From the NCBI GenBank assembly GCA_965603135.1, contig CBFDBV010000001.1, positions 1 through 45,580 on the forward strand: a DNA stretch of 45,580 nt, read 5' to 3'. The stretch's first letter is position 1. Every line of letters begins with the position of its first letter. The stretch comes from an uncultured bacterium. Lineage in GTDB: Bacteria; Armatimonadota; Zipacnadia; Zipacnadales; UBA5352. Shown here in pieces: positions 34,003 to 38,667 of this stretch. The notes beneath the pieces are model-generated. The model worked only from the letters and a program-made list of their open reading frames with translations. It was not told the DNA's origin and did not search any database. The translations under genes and the position numbers were made by a program.

Positions 34003-35928
34003 CTATTGCTGGCGGGCCCTTATGTAGTTGAGCCGCCCGCCGGCGAGGATGACGTTGCGCTCGCGCTCGGACAGCTCGGCGGTGAGAGCGATCGTCTCAT
34101 CGCTGCCCACGCGCTCGGCGAGGATGGCCTCCCTCGCGCTCAGCTTCGCGCGCAAGTCCGACATATGCAGCCGGTCGCCCGGTTGCAGGGCGGCGTAGTC
34201 CGCCGGCGCGATCACCAGGGGCAGGATGCCGAAGTTGATGAGGTTGGCCCTGTGAATGCGCGCGAAGGAGCAGGCGAGCACGGCCGCTACGCCCAAGTGC
34301 ATCGGCGCGAGGGCAGCATGCTCGCGGCTTGAGCCCTGGCCGTAGTTCTCGCCGCCGAGTATGAGGCCGGGCTGCTCGCTGCGGGCGCGAGACGGGAAGT
34401 CGGGGTCCACGGCCTCGAAGACGTGCTCGCTGATCGCCGGGATGTTGCTGCGCAGCGGCAGGATACTGGCGCCGGCGGGCAGGATATCGTCGGTAGTCAC
34501 GTTGTCGCCGAGCTTGAGCAGCACGGTCGCGGTCAGCTCGTCGGGGAGCGGGTCCTTGAGCGGGACCGGCTTGATGTTGGGGCCCCGGATGACTTGCACG
34601 TGGCTGCCGTCATCGGGGGGCGCGATAATCATGCTGTCGTCAACCGTGAAGCTCTCGGGCAGCTCGATGGATAGCGGCGGGCCGAAGTCGGCGGGCTCGG
34701 TGAACTCGCCTGCGATCGCGGCGATGGCGGCCACCTGAGGGCTGGTCAGGTAGATGCCGGCGTCGGCGGTGCCGCTGCGACCCCGGAAGTTCCGGTTGTA
34801 GGTGCGCAGGCTGGTGCCGCCGCTGGGAGGCGCCTGGCCCTGGCCCAGGCACGGCCCGCACGCCGGCTCCAGCACGCGGGCTCCGGCTCTGAGCAGATCA
34901 GCCAGCGCGCCGTTGCGGGCGATCATCTCCTCGACCTGCCGCGAGCCCGGGGAGATGACCAGGCTGACGCGGGGATGAACGGTCCTGCCCCTCAGCATCG
35001 CGGCTGCCGTCATCAAGTCGCGCAGCGACGAGTTCGTACAACTGCCGATGCAGACCTGGTCCACCGGCTGCCCTGCCAGCTCCCTGACCAGCACGACGTT
35101 GTCCGGGCTGTGCGGACACGCGACCAGCGGCTCGAGCTCGGCCAGGTTGATCTCGATCACTTCGTCGTACGCCGCGTCAGAGTCAGCAGCCAGTGCGGTC
35201 CAGGCCTCAGCGCGCTGCTGGGCGGTCAGGAACTCTCGCGTCCGCTCATCGCTGGGGAAAATGGAGGTCGTGGCTCCCAGCTCAGCGCCCATGTTGGCGA
35301 TGGTCGCGCGCTCGGGCACGCTCAGGGTCGCAACGCCCGGGCCGAGGTACTCCAGCAGCTTGCCCGCCCCGCCCTTGACACTCAGGCGCCGCAGGAGCTC
35401 CAGGATGACGTCCTTCGCCGTCGCCCAGCCGGCCAGCTCGCCGAGCAGCCGGACGCCGACGATGCTCGGCATGGTCAGATAGAACGGCTCACCCGCCATC
35501 GCCGCGGCGACGTCCAGGCCCCCGGAGCCGATGGCGAGCAGCGCCAGGCCGCCGGCGGTGGGCGTGTGGCTGTCGGAGCCCAGGAGGGTCTTGCCGGGGA
35601 TGCCGAAGCGCTCCAGGTGGACCTGATGGCAGATGCCGTTGCCGGGCCTGGAGAAGTGTACGCCGTAGCGCGCGGCGACGGACTGCAAGTAGCGGTGATC
35701 GTCGGCGTTCTCAAAGCCGGTCTGGAGTGTGTTGTGGTCCACGTAGCTGACGGAGAGTTCGGTGCGCACGCGCTCTATGCCGATGGCCTCAAACTGAAGG
35801 CAGGCGAGCGTCCCGGTTGCGTCCTGGGTCAGCGTCTGGTCCATGCGCAGCGCTATCTCCTCGCCGGGCGTCATCTCGCCCTCGAGCAGATGCTGGTGGA
35901 TGATCTTCTCGGCAAGTCTTTGACCCAT
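34003..35928 (-). CDS. Aconitase-family hydratase, single-chain ~640 aa form (most likely aconitate hydratase)
   Basis: ATG 35926-35928 is preceded by AGGAGG. The ORF is open to 36015 but that extension runs into the repeat tract. Fe-S ligand/active-site motifs GSDSHTPTAGGLA, CIGSCTNSSLRDL and ACGPCLGQG, plus swivel-domain GGENYGQGSSREHAA. Homoaconitase or IPM-isomerase specificity cannot be excluded from sequence alone. Confidence 0.85.
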   Translation of the reverse strand: MGQRLAEKIIHQHLLEGEMTPGEEIALRMDQTLTQDATGTLACLQFEAIGIERVRTELSVSYVDHNTLQTGFENADDHRYLQSVAARYGVHFSRPGNGICHQVHLERFGIPGKTLLGSDSHTPTAGGLALLAIGSGGLDVAAAMAGEPFYLTMPSIVGVRLLGELAGWATAKDVILELLRRLSVKGGAGKLLEYLGPGVATLSVPERATIANMGAELGATTSIFPSDERTREFLTAQQRAEAWTALAADSDAAYDEVIEINLAELEPLVACPHSPDNVVLVRELAGQPVDQVCIGSCTNSSLRDLMTAAAMLRGRTVHPRVSLVISPGSRQVEEMIARNGALADLLRAGARVLEPACGPCLGQGQAPPSGGTSLRTYNRNFRGRSGTADAGIYLTSPQVAAIAAIAGEFTEPADFGPPLSIELPESFTVDDSMIIAPPDDGSHVQVIRGPNIKPVPLKDPLPDELTATVLLKLGDNVTTDDILPAGASILPLRSNIPAISEHVFEAVDPDFPSRARSEQPGLILGGENYGQGSSREHAALAPMHLGVAAVLACSFARIHRANLINFGILPLVIAPADYAALQPGDRLHMSDLRAKLSAREAILAERVGSDETIALTAELSERERNVILAGGRLNYIRARQQ

Positions 35929-36003
35929 CGCGGTCCTCCTGGGCATCGGTGCCGCGCGGCACAGGGAGCTTTCGCGGTGGCGGGCATTCATTCCTGCGCC
36001 TGG

Positions 36004-36157
36004 AACGACGGGCAAAGGGCAAGGGGCAAAGGGGAAACGGCTAACGACGGGGAAAGGGCAAAGAGGACAAAGCGGAGCGCGAACTGACCAACGGCCCGCG
36101 CGAGCCGTTGTCGTTATCTGCCCTTTGCCTATTCCCCTTTCCCCTTTGCCCGCCGTT
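36004..36157. repeat. Compound inverted micro-repeat in the aconitase / small-gene divergent intergenic region
   Basis: Purine-rich left arm 36004-36073 (GGGCAAAGGGCAAGGGGCAAAGGGGAAACGGCTAACGACGGGGAAAGGGCAAAGAGGACAAAGCGG). Central hairpin CAACGGC-CCGCGCGA-GCCGTTG at 36089-36110. Pyrimidine-rich right arm 36106-36157 (CCGTTGTCGTTATCTGCCCTTTGCCTATTCCCCTTTCCCCTTTGCCCGCCGTTG). A perfect 14-bp inverted repeat, GGGCAAAGGGGAAA (36024-36037) against TTTCCCCTTTGCCC (36138-36151). Confidence 0.85.
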
Positions 36158-36183
36158 GAGCACGGGCAGGTGAGCGCGTCAAA

Positions 36184-36441
36184 ATGAGCGAGCCGTGGAA
36201 GCTCGTGATAGGATTCATCGGAGTAGTTGGCGGCTTTGTCGGGGGGCTGTTCGGCCTCTCCGCGATAATGTCGGGCCCAGGCGCCGCGCTTCTGGACGAC
36301 CGCCCCACGGTCACCTTCCTGGTGAGCGTTGGCCTGTGCGGAGGTGGGGCGGCACTGGTCGGGTGGGTGTTTCTGAGCATCATAGGCTATGTCGAGAAGC
36401 GCAGCAAGCGCGCAAAGCGGCGGAAGAAGAAACGCAAGTAG
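36184..36441 (+). CDS. Small two-TM membrane protein with a poly-basic C-terminal tail
   Basis: MSEPWKLVIGFIGVVGGFVGGLFGLSAI...VSVGLCGGGAALVGWVFLSIIGYV followed by EKRSKRAKRRKKKRK. AGGTGA lies 11 nt upstream. Codon bias is coding-like. No family recognised. Confidence 0.55.
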   Translation: MSEPWKLVIGFIGVVGGFVGGLFGLSAIMSGPGAALLDDRPTVTFLVSVGLCGGGAALVGWVFLSIIGYVEKRSKRAKRRKKKRK

Positions 36442-36453
36442 GGCTGGCCGCCG

Positions 36454-36491
36454 GAAAAGGGTTCTGTCCCCTTCTTCACGTCACCCTTTTC
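36454..36491. terminator. A/T-rich 9-bp hairpin between convergent small genes
   Basis: GAAAAGGGT (36454-36462), a 20-nt loop, then ACCCTTTTC (36483-36491). The U/A runs lie inside the stem rather than after it, so this is weak as a classical terminator. Confidence 0.3.
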
Positions 36492-36506
36492 AGCAAGTGC
36501 CCTACC

Positions 36507-36890
36507 TCAGAGGGGCGGCTCGGGCAGAGGGTTGATACGCCACTCCCCCTCCACCTGTTCCACGTAGTAGCGCCTGACGGTGCCGTCGGCTTCCTGGACG
36601 CTGATGGCGGCGCGCCCGTCCTGGGCGTCGTAGGTTACCTCGGTGGTGGCGGCGCCCTCCTGCGAGGAGACGCCCGGTATGCGCTGGACGTGGATGGGAC
36701 CGTACGGGTCAGGCGGGGAGGCCAGCCTCACGCCGAAGACGGCCGCGGTGATGATCAGAGCGGCAGCGAGCAGGTACACCAGCGCTCTGCGCACCCGGGC
36801 GCTGGCGACCCGTCGCGACCAGGAGATACTGTATCGGCCTCGGCGTAACATAGGCTCACGCTCATGGCGGGCAAAGAGCAAAGGGGCCAC
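36507..36890 (-). CDS. Small N-terminally anchored protein of unknown function
   Basis: TM ALVYLLAAALIITAAVFGV followed by a ~75-aa soluble domain (IHVQRIPGVSSQEGAATTEVTYDAQDGRAAISVQEADGTVRRYYVEQVEGEWRINP). The first 13 codons are read from repeat-like DNA, so the start is more likely the ATG at 36849-36851. Confidence 0.45.
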   Translation of the reverse strand: MAPLLFARHEREPMLRRGRYSISWSRRVASARVRRALVYLLAAALIITAAVFGVRLASPPDPYGPIHVQRIPGVSSQEGAATTEVTYDAQDGRAAISVQEADGTVRRYYVEQVEGEWRINPLPEPPL

Positions 36891-36990
36891 AGCACCGCCA
36901 ACTACCCACCGCCGCTCGCCGGCCGTTGCCTTTGCCGTTGCCCTACGTCGTTCCCCTTTGTCCTTTGCCCTTTGCCCTTTGCCCTTTGCT
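36864..36990. repeat. Inverted micro-repeat arms around the rng stop, including (CCCTTTG)4
   Basis: Right arm 36922-36990: GCCGTTGCCTTTGCCGTTGCCCTACGTCGTTCCCCTTTGTCCTTTGCCCTTTGCCCTTTGCCCTTTGCTCAC. Left arm: GGGCAAAGAGCAAAGGGG at 36866-36883. This pairs 16/18 with CCCCTTTGTCCTTTGCCC at 36953-36970. Confidence 0.85.
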
Positions 36991-38667
36991 CACAGGTGTG
37001 GCCCGCGCGTACGAGTTGGTCACCTTCGTCAGGCGCACCTTCACTGGGTCGCTGGTGTTGGGCGCAAGCTCAGGGACGAACACGATGAGGTCGTCAACCA
37101 CCGCGACCAGGCTCTCCTCACCCGCCGGGATGACGTGCTCAGGCAGGATCTGCACCCGGTGGCCGGCCTTGCCCTGCGTCAGTCGTCGCGCGTGCCGCTT
37201 GTTCTCCAGGGGGGTTATCTCGAACTCATCCGGGCGGACGGCCTCGGCAGTGCGGGCGTAGACCTCGCAGTCCAACTCGCTCTCGATCTCGTCAATGAGG
37301 TCTCCCTGGGGGCCGATGAGGGCCAGGATCACGTCCCGGTTCGCGACCACGTGCAGGAGGGATGCCCGGTCCTCACGGACGATCCTGCGGATCTCCCGCT
37401 CGAGGTTCGCGGCAACCGTGTCGGGGGAGAGCACGCGACCGCGCCCGTCGCAGTAGGGGCAGGTCACCTGGAGCTGCTGGACGATGCTCTCGCTGGTGCG
37501 CTTGCGCGTCATCTCGATCAGGCCGAGGCGGGTGATGTGCATAATGCGCGTCTTCATGCGGTCTTTCTCGAAGGCCTTGCGCAGCGCGGTGGTCACCTGC
37601 TCGCGGTGCTTGGGCTTGTCCATGTCAATGAAGTCAATGACGATGATGCCGCCGATGTCGCGTAGGCGCAACTGCCAGGCGACCTCCTCGGCAGCCTCCA
37701 GGTTCGTGCGCAGCACGGTCTCCTCCAGGCTCTTGCCGGTGAACTTGCCGGTGTTGACATCAATCGTGGTGAGCGCCTCGGTCTGCTCGATGCTTATCCA
37801 GCCGCCGTTGGGCAGCCAGACCTTCGGCTGAAGGGAGCGTACGATCTGCGGCTCGACGTCGTAGTGGGTGAAGATGGGCTTGGCCCCGCGGTACAGGTGC
37901 ACCCGGTCGCGTAACACCGGGGCAACGTTGTTGAGGAGATTGAGCACCTTGTCGTAGGTGACCTTGTCGTCAATGAGGAACTCGTCCACGTCGGCCGAGA
38001 ACACGTCCCGGAGCACCTCCAGCACCAGGCTCAGGTCCTCGTGTATGAGGGCCGGCGCCTTGGCCTGCTGGGCGCGCGACTGAATTGAGCGCCAGAGCCG
38101 CGTGAGGAACTTGACGTCATCCTGGAGTTCCTTCCTGGTGACCCCCTGAGCGCGAGTGCGCACGATGATGCCGAAGTCCTCCGGGCGGACCTCACGGGCC
38201 AGCTCTCGCAGGCGCTTGCGCTCGTCATCGTCCTCGATCTTCTTGGAGACGCCCACCTTCTCGCTGGTGTCGGTCATAAACACCAGGTAGCGACCGGGCA
38301 GGGATATGCGACGGGTGCCGCGAGCGCCCTTGTCCTCCAGGGGCCCCTTGACTATCTGCACCAGGAACTCGTCGCCCTTTCTCACGACCTCCCCGATGGG
38401 CGGGAAGGAGTTCATCTTGCGCCGCATCTTGTGACGCGGCGGCTCCTCGGTGAGCGCGTCGGCGACGTGCAGGAAGACGTTCTTGTCCAGCCCGCACTCC
38501 ACGAAGGCAGCATCAAGGCCGCGCACGGTGTTCTCGACGCGGCCTTTATAGATGTTGCCAACGACGTGCTCTCCTCTTTCCACCATCAGTTCCGAGACTC
38601 GACCGTTCTCCAGGATTGCTACTCGTGTCTGTCGGCGCGTGACATTTGCCAGTATTTTCCGTGCCAT
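36943..38667 (-). CDS. rng: Ribonuclease E/G family endoribonuclease (short, RNase G-like)
   Basis: S1 domain at the N-terminus (VGNIYKGRVENTVRGLDAAFVECGLDKNVFLHV). RNase E/G catalytic core (ALTTIDVNTGKF, GGIIVIDFIDM). Zn-link-like CPYCDGRGRV. The C-terminal SKGQRAKGKGQRGTT is read from the heptamer repeat. Confidence 0.92.
   Translation of the reverse strand: MARKILANVTRRQTRVAILENGRVSELMVERGEHVVGNIYKGRVENTVRGLDAAFVECGLDKNVFLHVADALTEEPPRHKMRRKMNSFPPIGEVVRKGDEFLVQIVKGPLEDKGARGTRRISLPGRYLVFMTDTSEKVGVSKKIEDDDERKRLRELAREVRPEDFGIIVRTRAQGVTRKELQDDVKFLTRLWRSIQSRAQQAKAPALIHEDLSLVLEVLRDVFSADVDEFLIDDKVTYDKVLNLLNNVAPVLRDRVHLYRGAKPIFTHYDVEPQIVRSLQPKVWLPNGGWISIEQTEALTTIDVNTGKFTGKSLEETVLRTNLEAAEEVAWQLRLRDIGGIIVIDFIDMDKPKHREQVTTALRKAFEKDRMKTRIMHITRLGLIEMTRKRTSESIVQQLQVTCPYCDGRGRVLSPDTVAANLEREIRRIVREDRASLLHVVANRDVILALIGPQGDLIDEIESELDCEVYARTAEAVRPDEFEITPLENKRHARRLTQGKAGHRVQILPEHVIPAGEESLVAVVDDLIVFVPELAPNTSDPVKVRLTKVTNSYARATPVSKGQRAKGKGQRGTT

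What the first reader, a model, noticed from the sequence alone, without database searches (positions are those of the whole stretch)
36004..36157. 150-bp compound palindrome with a canonical G-quadruplex motif in the aconitase / small-membrane-protein divergent promoter region
The whole spacer between the divergent starts (35928 and 36184) is built from the micro-repeat words, arranged as a purine-rich arm, a central 7-bp hairpin (36089-36110) and a pyrimidine-rich arm. A perfect 14-bp inverted repeat is present, 36024-36037 against 36138-36151. On the + strand, 36010-36034 reads GGG-CAAA-GGG-CAA-GGGG-CAAA-GGGG, a textbook G3+N1-7 x4 quadruplex motif. The mirror arm gives GGGCAAAGGGGAAAGGGG on the - strand. 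Each divergent gene therefore has a G4-prone tract on its template strand upstream, and the two arms can alternatively pair as a cruciform or long RNA hairpin. This is a plausible structure-based switch at a central-metabolism (aconitase-family) promoter.
Basis: partly seen in the sequence, partly recalled or inferred. Interest (0 to 1): 0.6.

Follow-up and report, generated by a model that had tools for sequence, protein, structure and literature searches.

The report
Dispersed G-rich heptamer repeat, palindromic copy
The 150-bp palindrome in front of the aconitase gene is real, but it is one strain-variable copy of a 7-base repeat family found at about 120 gene borders in this sediment bacterium, a repeat class already described in Xanthomonas and Nostoc, so it is not a dedicated switch for aconitase.

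Summary
Window 36004-36157 holds a G-rich arm, a 7-bp central hairpin and a C-rich arm. It also holds a canonical G4 motif (36010-34, G4Hunter 1.88) and a perfect 14-bp inverted repeat, and its fold z-scores are -4.7 and -6.1.

The arms are not specific to this locus. The genome (a 4.9-Mb MAG, probably Armatimonadota, from marine sediment) carries 121 (GGGCAAA)n arrays with an AACGRC head. Period 7 is by far the commonest tandem period in its intergenic DNA.

The arrays are polar:
- 53 of 116 start 0-15 nt after a same-strand stop codon (null 3.4%).
- 27 have their G-strand 5' end towards an opposite-strand gene start.
- Adjacent pairs always read G-arm then C-arm (14 against 0).
- The number of G-tracts peaks at four.
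- Divergent spacers are under-used (4 against 12 expected).

These are the properties Rehm et al. 2015 reported for GGGAATC and GGGGAYT repeats.

At this locus the element is recent and variable. Three relatives keep the divergent aconitase and small-membrane-protein pair but have no arrays. One strain has an extra unit. Another strain lacks the G-arm, with the break at its boundary. Paired arms are no more complementary within a locus than between loci.

Verdict: a new member of a known and still unexplained repeat class. The proposed aconitase switch is unsupported.

The parts
36004..36080 (+). G-rich arm. It has the head AACGAC (36004-09), four heptamer units GGGCAAA/GGGCAAG/GGGCAAA/GGGGAAA (36010-37) and the tail ACGGCTAACGAC. 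A second degenerate array GGGGAAAGGGCAAAGAGGACAAAG follows (36049-72). This is a 'type A' arm of the genome-wide family.
   Evidence: In metagenome contigs the arm has 30-100 times the depth of its flanks, so it is multi-copy.
36010..36034 (+). Canonical G-quadruplex motif (G3+N3-4)x4, with a G4Hunter score of 1.88.
36089..36110 (.). Central 7-bp hairpin CAACGGC-N8-GCCGTTG, made of two inverted copies of the family's head word AACGGC.
36112..36157 (-). C-rich arm on the plus strand. On the minus strand it reads AACGGC-GGGCAAA-GGGGAAA-GGGGAAT-AGGCAAA-GGGCAG-ATAACGAC, a second type A arm facing the first.
35929..36003 (-). Unique 75-nt stretch between the G-arm and the aconitase ATG. It holds the Shine-Dalgarno sequence AGGAGG and a perfect 14-bp palindrome GTGCCGCGCGGCAC (35949-35962). 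It is conserved in all strains laid on the window.
36158..36183 (+). Unique 26 nt between the C-arm and the ATG of the small membrane protein. This is too short to hold a promoter plus a leader, so that mRNA should start inside or beyond the element (inference).
34003..35928 (-). Aconitate hydratase gene (641 aa).
   Evidence: Pfam Aconitase and Aconitase_C. NCBIfam NF005558 at 964 bits.
36184..36441 (+). 85-aa protein with two predicted membrane helices and a basic tail. It is a real gene, conserved and divergently placed next to aconitase in relatives G004, G008 and G011.
   Evidence: No Pfam or NCBIfam match.
36866..36991 (-). Second composite of the same family, in the typical position between tandem genes. 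On the minus strand it has a G-arm (36950-36991), then an AACGGC-type tail, then a type B C-arm GGCGGTGCTGTGGCCCCTTTGCTCTTTGCCCGCC (36899-36866) just before the next ORF.

Best explanation
Window 36004-36157 is one composite copy of a genome-wide family of polar, G-rich heptanucleotide arrays. It consists of two inverted 'type A' arms around a short core built from the same words. Each arm has the head AACGRC, then (GGGCAAA)3-6, then an AACGRC-type tail. The family belongs to the class of G4-prone heptamer simple-sequence repeats described in Xanthomonas and Nostoc.

Shown here:
- The family is dispersed.
- It is tightly and directionally tied to gene borders. The G-strand starts a few bases after stop codons or points away from an opposite-strand start codon.
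- This copy is absent from relatives that have the same gene order.
- This copy varies between strains, both in unit number and in presence of a whole arm, with the break at the arm boundary.

Inferred:
- Arrays are resized by slipped-strand mispairing.
- Arms are gained, lost or replaced as blocks.
- This copy is a recent arrival in a divergent spacer, a site the family usually avoids.
- Any effect on the two genes is the generic one of the family. If transcription starts in the core, each mRNA gets a C-rich, G-poor leader. If RNA polymerase reads through both arms, a long G-arm/C-arm hairpin forms.

It is not a dedicated G4 or cruciform switch for aconitase.
For: Family and abundance:
- The 161-nt query gives 99 matches in the window's own genome.
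- GGGCAAAGGG occurs 188 times against about 21 expected from composition.
- There are 121 arrays, covering 249 positions, against 4 positions in the reversed-sequence control.
- Exact arrays of 3 or more copies: 79 at period 7, against 6 at period 6 and 0 at period 8.
- TRF finds 748 period-7 arrays, 442 of them outside called genes. The next most frequent period in intergenic DNA has 110.

Polarity:
- 53 of 116 arrays start 0-15 nt after a same-strand stop codon (mode 4-6 nt), against a null of 3.35% (p = 3e-46).
- 27 arrays have an opposite-strand gene start within 150 nt of their G-strand 5' end.
- The median distance to the neighbouring gene is 14 nt on the 5' side and 117 nt on the 3' side.
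- Adjacent pairs read G-arm then C-arm 14 times and the reverse 0 times (p = 1e-4).
- Type A tails go with stop codons and type B tails with start codons (Fisher p = 3e-4).
- The number of G-tracts per array peaks at four.
- Divergent spacers are under-used.

All of these match Rehm et al. 2015 (PMC4692102).

This locus:
- The specific heptamer is absent from 40 relatives, apart from 3 hits in G007. Sister genus G016 has (GGGAAAC)n arrays with the same AACGGC head and the same placement.
- Spacers with the same gene order in G004, G008 and G011 have no arrays.
- Strain X13 has one extra unit, AGGGCAG, after 36015.
- Strain X16 diverges exactly at 36002/36003 and rejoins at 36119, so it lacks the G-arm.
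- The two arms at a locus are no more complementary to each other than arms from different loci.
Against: - No transcript data exist for this organism. The two metatranscriptomes from a sample that holds it gave nothing, so a regulatory effect of this copy is untested.
- The extreme closeness of arrays to stop codons, and the AACGGC head shared across genera that use different heptamers, are hard to explain by neutral slippage alone. They suggest either a function or a directed insertion mechanism for the family.
- The palindrome is kept, without indels, in strains from several studies between 2016 and 2024, so it is not rapidly lost.
- The evidence for the X16 allele rests on two low-depth (about 4x) metagenome contigs that were not joined to each other.
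- Gene calls came from a home-made codon-usage caller whose start positions are approximate.
Confidence: 0.8

Rival explanations
1. The family has an RNA-level 'punctuation' function. G-rich trailers after stop codons and C-rich leaders before start codons, which pair into hairpins in polycistronic or read-through RNA, would act as 3'-end stabilisers, terminators, processing sites or insulators. The C-rich strand could also serve as a Rho-loading site. Under this reading, the copy here would insulate the two divergent units or provide their leaders.
For: - Arrays are tightly coupled to stop codons (mode 4-6 nt, p = 3e-46).
- The order G-arm then C-arm is strict (14:0).
- Type B arms end directly at Shine-Dalgarno sequences or start codons.
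- The AACGGC head and the placement are conserved in a sister genus that uses a different heptamer.
- In Xanthomonas, transcripts start or stop at G4-capable repeats more often than at control repeats (PMC4692102).
Against: - The two arms of a pair do not co-vary (within-locus 0.737 against between-locus 0.750, p = 0.80).
- About two thirds of arrays are solo arms that cannot form the hairpin.
- Spacers with the same gene order in relatives do without arrays.
- Arms come and go between strains.
- A divergent spacer has no upstream gene to terminate.
- There are no RNA data.
Confidence: 0.25
2. One reading: a DNA-level G-quadruplex and cruciform switch that controls the divergent aconitase and small-protein promoters.
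For: - The G4 motif is canonical, with a G4Hunter score of 1.88.
- Similar heptamer oligonucleotides fold as G4 in K+ in vitro (PMC4692102).
- The G-rich strand is the template strand for both genes.
- The mode of four G-tracts per array hints that G4 capacity matters to the family.
Against: - The element is not locus-specific.
- It is absent from relatives with the same gene order.
- The G-arm is dispensable in the X16 strain.
- The genome as a whole shows no G4 excess (559 motifs against about 544 expected).
- The family avoids divergent spacers.
- The complementary arm lies only about 80 nt away, which favours duplex or hairpin over G4.
- No sigma-70-like promoter could be placed.
Confidence: 0.07
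3. A MITE-like or REP-like mobile element moved by a transposase (for example a RAYT), with the two AACGRC-(GGGCAAA)n arms acting as terminal inverted repeats.
For: - The outer ends are inverted (AACGAC...GCCGTT) and the boundaries are sharp. The X16 allele breaks at 36002/36003.
- The pair orientation is always 5' ends outward.
- The element is dispersed in many copies.
Against: - Most copies are solo arms, and the arms vary in unit number.
- No target-site duplication is visible at this copy.
- In X16 only one arm is missing, not the whole element, and other sequence takes its place.
- The only Y1-transposase-like ORF in the genome (C268, 24.6 bits) is flanked by a different hairpin repeat, GGCGGGGCTNNAGCCCCGCC, and not by heptamer arrays.
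- No IVS-type four-helix protein (PF05635) is present.
- The arms of a pair are independent samples of the family.
Confidence: 0.1

Closest known systems
G-rich heptameric repeats GGGAATC (Xanthomonas) and GGGGA(C/T)T (Nostoc PCC 7120), Rehm et al. 2015, PLoS One 10:e0144275 (PMC4692102)
   Same: - A 7-nt unit carrying a G3-4 tract.
- About 100-200 dispersed arrays, mostly intergenic.
- A preference for about four units.
- Arrays lie close to the gene on their 5' side whatever its orientation: on the coding strand right after, or overlapping, the stop codon, and on the non-coding strand upstream of starts.
- Tandemly inverted pairs that can form stem-loops in competition with G4.
- Under-representation between divergent ORFs.
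- Length variation between close relatives.
- No link to the functional class of the neighbouring genes.

All of these were reproduced here.
   Different: - The unit is GGGCAAA.
- The host is an uncultured, probably Armatimonadota, sediment bacterium.
- The arrays carry a fixed AACGRC head and two tail types (A after stop codons, B before start codons).
- They are embedded in spacers filled with several other heptamer families.
- G4 folding of this unit has not been measured.
Cyanobacterial STRR (short tandemly repeated repetitive) heptanucleotide sequences, and the general excess of heptameric long SSRs in prokaryotes (from my own knowledge and as cited in PMC4692102)
   Same: Several heptamer families live side by side in one genome. 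They are intergenic and lineage-specific, and their function is unknown. The excess is specific to period 7.
   Different: The phylum, the base composition (67% GC) and the units are different. The strict polarity and pairing rules documented here are not part of the classical STRR description.
TAACTGA heptamer direct repeats of marine Beggiatoaceae, Cyanobacteria and Bacteroidetes (MacGregor 2015, PMC4679880)
   Same: These are intergenic heptamer direct repeats of 2-6 copies at about 170 sites. They lie within a few nucleotides of start codons and have been proposed as post-transcriptional sites.
   Different: The TAACTGA unit is AT-rich and cannot form G4. It lies mainly upstream of start codons and is not reported as inverted pairs or as stop-codon trailers.
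REP/BIME elements with RAYT transposases (enterobacteria, pseudomonads)
   Same: They are dispersed intergenic repeats, often just downstream of stop codons. They occur singly or as inverted pairs that fold into hairpins in mRNA.
   Different: A REP unit is itself an imperfect palindrome, not a tandem heptamer array. In this genome the RAYT-like gene is flanked by a different repeat.
Promoter or UTR G-quadruplex regulators in bacteria (for example the engineered E. coli G4 series cited in PMC4692102, or the pilE G4 of Neisseria)
   Same: A canonical G4 motif close to promoters, with effects that depend on which strand carries it.
   Different: Those are single, locus-specific motifs. This one is a copy of a repeat family and is dispensable in relatives and in a sister strain.

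Membership tests
G-rich heptamer SSR class (Rehm et al. 2015) | Tandem 7-nt units, each with a G3-4 tract, dispersed and over-represented in non-coding DNA | tested here: met
   121 arrays, covering 249 positions against 4 in the reversed control. Period 7 dominates intergenic tandem repeats. 73 of the 152 canonical G4 motifs that lie mostly outside called genes fall in these arrays.
G-rich heptamer SSR class (Rehm et al. 2015) | Preference for about four units, that is four G-tracts | tested here: met
   Distribution of consecutive G3+ tracts per array: 2 tracts in 19 arrays, 3 in 28, 4 in 40, 5 in 26, 6 in 3. The mode is four, though the peak is broad.
G-rich heptamer SSR class (Rehm et al. 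2015) | [quoted passage not shown] | tested here: met
   53 of 116 arrays lie within 15 nt after a stop codon (null 3.35%). 27 lie near opposite-strand starts. The median distance to the neighbouring gene is 14 nt on the 5' side and 117 nt on the 3' side.
G-rich heptamer SSR class (Rehm et al. 2015) | Under-representation between divergent ORFs | tested here: met
   4 of the 74 array-bearing spacers are divergent, against 12.2 expected (p = 0.007).
G-rich heptamer SSR class (Rehm et al. 2015) | Oligonucleotides fold as K+-dependent G-quadruplexes in vitro | not testable with these tools
   Only in-silico evidence is available: a canonical motif and a G4Hunter score of 1.88.
REP/BIME-RAYT system | The repeat units flank a single-copy Y1 (RAYT) transposase gene in inverted orientation | tested here: not met
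   The only PF01797 hit (C268:2980-3498, 24.6 bits) is flanked by GGCGGGGCTNNAGCCCCGCC hairpins, not by heptamer arrays. Caveat: the genome is 84% complete.
MITE | Terminal inverted repeats plus a target-site duplication, with whole-element presence/absence alleles | tested here: inconclusive
   Inverted outer ends are present, but no duplication is visible at 36003/36158. The X16 allele lacks one arm and carries replacement sequence, so it is not a clean empty site.
IVS-like four-helix-bundle cassettes with heptamer stems (a lead from earlier scan notes) | The arms bracket a PF05635 (23S rRNA IVS protein) gene somewhere in the genome | tested here: not met
   There is no PF05635 match in the window's own genome.
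Known structured RNA families (Rfam) | A match to a curated covariance model | tested here: not met
   Only chance-level hits: mir-641 at 22.6 bits against a gathering score of 100, E = 0.36.
Locus-specific promoter G4 switch | The motif is conserved at the orthologous promoter and is specific to it | tested here: not met
   It is absent from the orthologous divergent spacers of G004, G008 and G011. The arm is missing in strain X16. The motif is repeated about 120 times elsewhere in the genome.

The most novel reading that the evidence does not exclude
In this family of (probably) Armatimonadota, heptamer arrays with a conserved AACGGC head may form a lineage-wide system that marks gene borders. 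There would be a G-rich trailer starting within about 5 nt of the stop codon and a C-rich leader ending at the ribosome-binding site. The heptamer itself would be free to change between genera (GGGCAAA here, GGGAAAC in G016). A dedicated factor would read or install the arrays, for example an RNA-binding protein, RNase E/G, Rho, or a nuclease or polymerase that places them. The aconitase palindrome would then be a working pair of leaders rather than junk.
Probability: 0.15. Interest if true: 0.7.

Novelty: new member of a known kind. Interest (0 to 1): 0.3.

Why it matters
For this locus the result removes a tempting but unsupported story, that of a G-quadruplex switch on a central-metabolism gene. 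The structure comes from a repeat family and varies between strains.

For the repeat class, the genome is an unusually clean case. About 120 arrays obey strict rules: they start 4-6 nt after stop codons, pairs always read G-arm then C-arm, and the two tail types go with stop codons and start codons respectively. The head word is shared with a sister genus that uses a different heptamer. Natural alleles in public metagenomes show both unit slippage and the gain or loss of whole arms.

Heptamer repeats have gone unexplained since they were found in cyanobacteria. A lineage in which they fill a large share of the spacers could make it possible to test whether they are read or written by a cell factor.

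Tried and rejected
- **Rfam scan of 35000-37500.** It gave only chance hits.
- **Sigma-70 promoter scan of 35800-36300.** It found no site, so the promoters could not be placed.
- **RNA evidence.** Only two metatranscriptomes share a sample or study with a DNA run that holds the stretch. Neither contains this organism's transcripts.
- **RAYT link.** One weak Y1_Tnp ORF exists, but it is flanked by a different REP-like hairpin. Rejected.
- **Link to an IVS-type four-helix protein, suggested by earlier scan notes.** PF05635 is absent from this genome. Rejected here.
- **Selection for the hairpin.** I tested whether the arms of a pair co-vary. They do not.
- **Genome-wide G4 enrichment.** There is none (559 motifs against about 544 expected). 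Only the intergenic share is shaped by the arrays.
- **A clean empty-site allele.** I looked for a precise excision in eight metagenome runs. The one joint reported (36002 to 36159 in X16) turned out to be a replacement allele that keeps the C-arm.
- **The apparent +23 nt in strain X15.** It lies at a contig end inside the array and could not be confirmed at higher stringency, so I treat it as tentative.
- **Organism name.** The genome-collection search leaves out the window's own genome. The best aconitase relatives are WS1, Armatimonadota, Chloroflexia and Bacillota MAGs. 'Armatimonadota' therefore rests mainly on earlier scan notes.

Full report
**What is there.** Window 36004-36157 reads as follows.
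- AACGAC, then GGGCAAA GGGCAAG GGGCAAA GGGGAAA, then ACGGCTAACGAC.
- A degenerate second array, GGGGAAAGGGCAAAGAGGACAAAG.
- A core containing the 7-bp hairpin CAACGGC-N8-GCCGTTG (36089-36110).
- The mirror arm GTCGTTATCT-GCCCTTTGCCTATTCCCCTTTCCCCTTTGCCC-GCCGTT.

The feature is not a chance product. The word GGGVAARGGG occurs 10 times in the window against 0.98 expected. Either strand folds far better than its shuffles, at -85.1 kcal/mol (z -4.7) and -89.3 kcal/mol (z -6.1). G4Hunter gives 1.88 for the 25-mer.

The flanking genes are a bona fide aconitate hydratase (34003-35928, minus strand; NF005558 at 964 bits) and an 85-aa two-helix protein (36184-36441, plus strand) that is conserved in relatives. 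The repeat words fill 36004-36157. The 75 nt next to the aconitase start and the 26 nt next to the small gene's start are unique sequence.

**It is one copy of a genome-wide family.**
- The window belongs to a 4.9-Mb assembly in 648 contigs, 84% complete and 66.7% GC. The same stretch is found in marine-sediment and cold-seep metagenomes.
- A BLAST-type search of that genome with the 161-nt element gave 99 matches.
- GGGCAAAGGG occurs 188 times against about 21 expected.
- A scan for three (GGGCAAA) units with up to 3 mismatches gave 121 arrays, covering 249 positions against 4 in the reversed-sequence control.
- The consensus arm is [A/G/C]ACG[G/A]C, then (GGGCAA[A/G/T])3-6, then one of two tails. 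Tail A is GGGGAACGGC(AAACGGC)n. Tail B is GGGGCCACAGCACCGCC.
- The genome has a period-7 excess in general. Exact arrays of three or more copies number 79 at period 7, against 6, 0, 9 and 1 at periods 6, 8, 5 and 9.
- TRF finds 748 period-7 arrays, 442 of them outside called genes. The next most frequent period in intergenic DNA has 110.
- Other heptamer families share the spacers, among them GGGCAAT, GGGGAAT, GGAGGCT and CCGATGT.
- In metagenome contigs the two arms have 30-100 times the depth of their flanks, and assemblies break inside them.

**The family is polar.** I made a rough codon-usage gene call (3345 genes, 87% coding).
- Of 116 evaluable arrays, 53 begin 0-15 nt after the stop codon of a same-strand coding ORF (mode 4-6 nt). 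A random intergenic position and strand does so 3.35% of the time (p = 3e-46).
- Many of the 36 unclassified arrays also sit on a stop codon by eye. In a few the reading frame runs on into the array.
- 27 arrays have an opposite-strand gene start within 150 nt of their G-strand 5' end, often 9-40 nt away. In these cases the C-rich strand forms the leader right up to the ribosome-binding site.
- The median distance to the neighbouring gene is 14 nt on the array's 5' side and 117 nt on its 3' side.
- When two arrays are adjacent on opposite strands, the order is always G-arm then C-arm: 14 against 0, p = 1e-4.
- Tail A goes with stop codons (34 A, 4 B) and tail B with start codons (8 A, 11 B). 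Fisher p = 3e-4.
- The number of consecutive G-tracts per array peaks at four.
- Array-bearing spacers are 62 tandem, 8 convergent and 4 divergent, against 12.2 divergent expected (p = 0.007).

The aconitase copy is therefore atypical in two ways. It lies in a divergent spacer, and it is an A/A pair, whereas most pairs are A/B.

**Comparison with the literature.** Rehm et al. 2015 (PMC4692102) described GGGAATC repeats in Xanthomonas and GGGGA(C/T)T repeats in Nostoc. Their features were:
- dispersed and intergenic;
- a preference for four units;
[quoted passage not shown] - inverted pairs in which stem-loop and G4 may compete;
- under-representation between divergent ORFs;
- length variation between close relatives;
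- G4 folding shown by CD;
- no function found.

Every feature that could be tested in silico is reproduced here. MacGregor 2015 (PMC4679880) describes another intergenic heptamer family, TAACTGA, close to start codons. So the present family is a new member of a known but unexplained class, in a phylum where the papers I could search do not report it.

**The copy at the aconitase gene is recent and variable.**
- The heptamer pattern is absent from 40 relatives of the same family and order, apart from 3 hits in G007.
- The backwards-read control pattern revealed long (GGGAAAC)n arrays in sister genus G016. These carry the same AACGGC head after stop codons and the same orientation towards opposite-strand starts. 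The architecture is therefore shared across the family while the heptamer differs.
- I compared 18 aconitase loci from the 17 other genomes of the family. In 13 of them a co-directional gene ends 20-50 nt upstream of aconitase.
- Three relatives (G004, G008, G011) keep the divergent small-membrane-protein gene, with 150-290-nt spacers that contain no arrays.
- In public metagenomes the palindrome is present without indels in strains from several studies (X1, X5, X9).
- Strain X13 has one extra unit, AGGGCAG, after 36015. The contig showing this is anchored in the unique left flank.
- Strain X15 may have about three extra units, but this is tentative.
- Strain X16 is about 97% identical in the flanks. 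It leaves the window sequence exactly at 36002/36003, the outer edge of the G-arm, and continues with unrelated letters (CACTGGCGCGACCGG...). Its right-hand contig enters from different sequence at 36119 and then carries the C-arm. The aconitase-proximal arm is therefore dispensable in nature, although this rests on two unjoined contigs of about 4x depth.

**Is the hairpin itself selected?** Across 15 G-arm/C-arm pairs, the in-register complementarity of the two arms of a locus averages 0.737. For arms taken from different loci it averages 0.750 (permutation p = 0.80). The value for the window pair is 0.79. The pairing is thus a by-product of both arms being family members. There is no sign of compensatory maintenance or of an origin by palindromic duplication.

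**Mobile-element tests.**
- The only Y1-transposase-like ORF (C268:2980-3498, 24.6 bits) is flanked by a different hairpin repeat, GGCGGGGCTNNAGCCCCGCC (about 40 copies). This is a separate REP/RAYT-like system.
- PF05635, a lead from earlier scan notes, is absent.
- No target-site duplication is visible at 36003/36158.
- Rfam gives nothing.

**How it most likely works.**
- Shown: the family identity of the element, its polarity rules, its absence from relatives with the same gene order, and the strain-level changes in unit number and arm content.
- Inferred: arrays change length by slipped-strand mispairing, and arms are gained, lost or replaced as blocks at the AACGRC edge.
- Only 26 nt separate the C-arm from the small gene's ATG. 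That mRNA must therefore begin inside or beyond the element. If both promoters lie in the 36081-36118 core, each mRNA carries a C-rich, G-poor leader, like the 27 start-type copies. If RNA polymerase reads across both arms, a hairpin of about -85 kcal/mol forms.
- A DNA G4 on the template strand is possible in principle. Nothing singles out this copy, and the complementary arm about 80 nt away favours duplex or hairpin.
- My estimates: about 0.8 that this is a family copy with no dedicated role. As a separate, overlapping question, about 0.25 that the family as a whole has an RNA-level border function.

**What could not be done.** No transcript data exist for this organism. No sigma-70-like promoter was found. 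G4 folding is untested. Gene starts are approximate. The organism's name (Armatimonadota) rests mainly on earlier scan notes, with only loose support from the aconitase relatives.

Noticed in passing
window 36866-36991 (minus strand): A second composite of the same family lies between the RNase E/G gene (36943-38667) and the next ORF. The RNase E/G reading frame runs through the G-arm, so its last 15 or so residues (VSKGQRAKGKGQRGTT*) are encoded by heptamer units. The type B C-arm ends 15 nt before the in-frame ATG at 36851. No clear Shine-Dalgarno sequence lies between them.
   Followed up: partly
G000:C268:2600-3900 (own genome, another contig): A Y1_Tnp/RAYT-like ORF (172 aa, HLH motif, 24.6 bits) is flanked by inverted copies of a hairpin repeat, GGCGGGGCTNNAGCCCCGCC (about 40 copies in the genome). 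A 14-nt tandem array (GTGTCGTATGGACGT-type, about 8 copies) precedes it. This looks like a classical REP/RAYT system, separate from the heptamer arrays.
   Followed up: partly
own genome, many contigs: At least three more dispersed intergenic repeat families are present: the GTAGGTCGGGC...GCCCGAC hairpins (57 copies), CCGCCGTAGCCTTGGC (52) and GCAGGGCAAGCCCTGCGC followed by GGGGAAAGGGG (40). The spacers are mosaics of these families and several heptamer families.
   Followed up: no
L150-L156 (relative G016): A sister genus carries a few very long arrays, (GGGAAAC)15-20 followed by (GGAAAC)n and (GGCGAAC)n. They have the same AACGGC head after stop codons. The architecture is conserved while the unit differs, and the copy-number dynamics are different: few long arrays instead of many short ones.
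   Followed up: partly
window 35949-35962: A perfect 14-bp palindrome, GTGCCGCGCGGCAC, lies in the unique 75 nt between the G-arm and the aconitase start. It could be an operator or a small leader hairpin. Position 35952 is C>G in one X9 strain.
   Followed up: no
window 36441-36506: Between the convergent small-protein gene and the next minus-strand ORF lies an inverted repeat, GAAAAGGGT...ACCCTTTTC. It is a candidate bidirectional terminator and is not built from heptamer words.
   Followed up: no
own genome: C17:21740, C31:11861, C50:4171, C384:950, C539:1378: At several loci no stop codon precedes the array, and the upstream reading frame appears to continue into the heptamer units, giving array-encoded C-terminal tails as in RNase E/G.
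   Followed up: no
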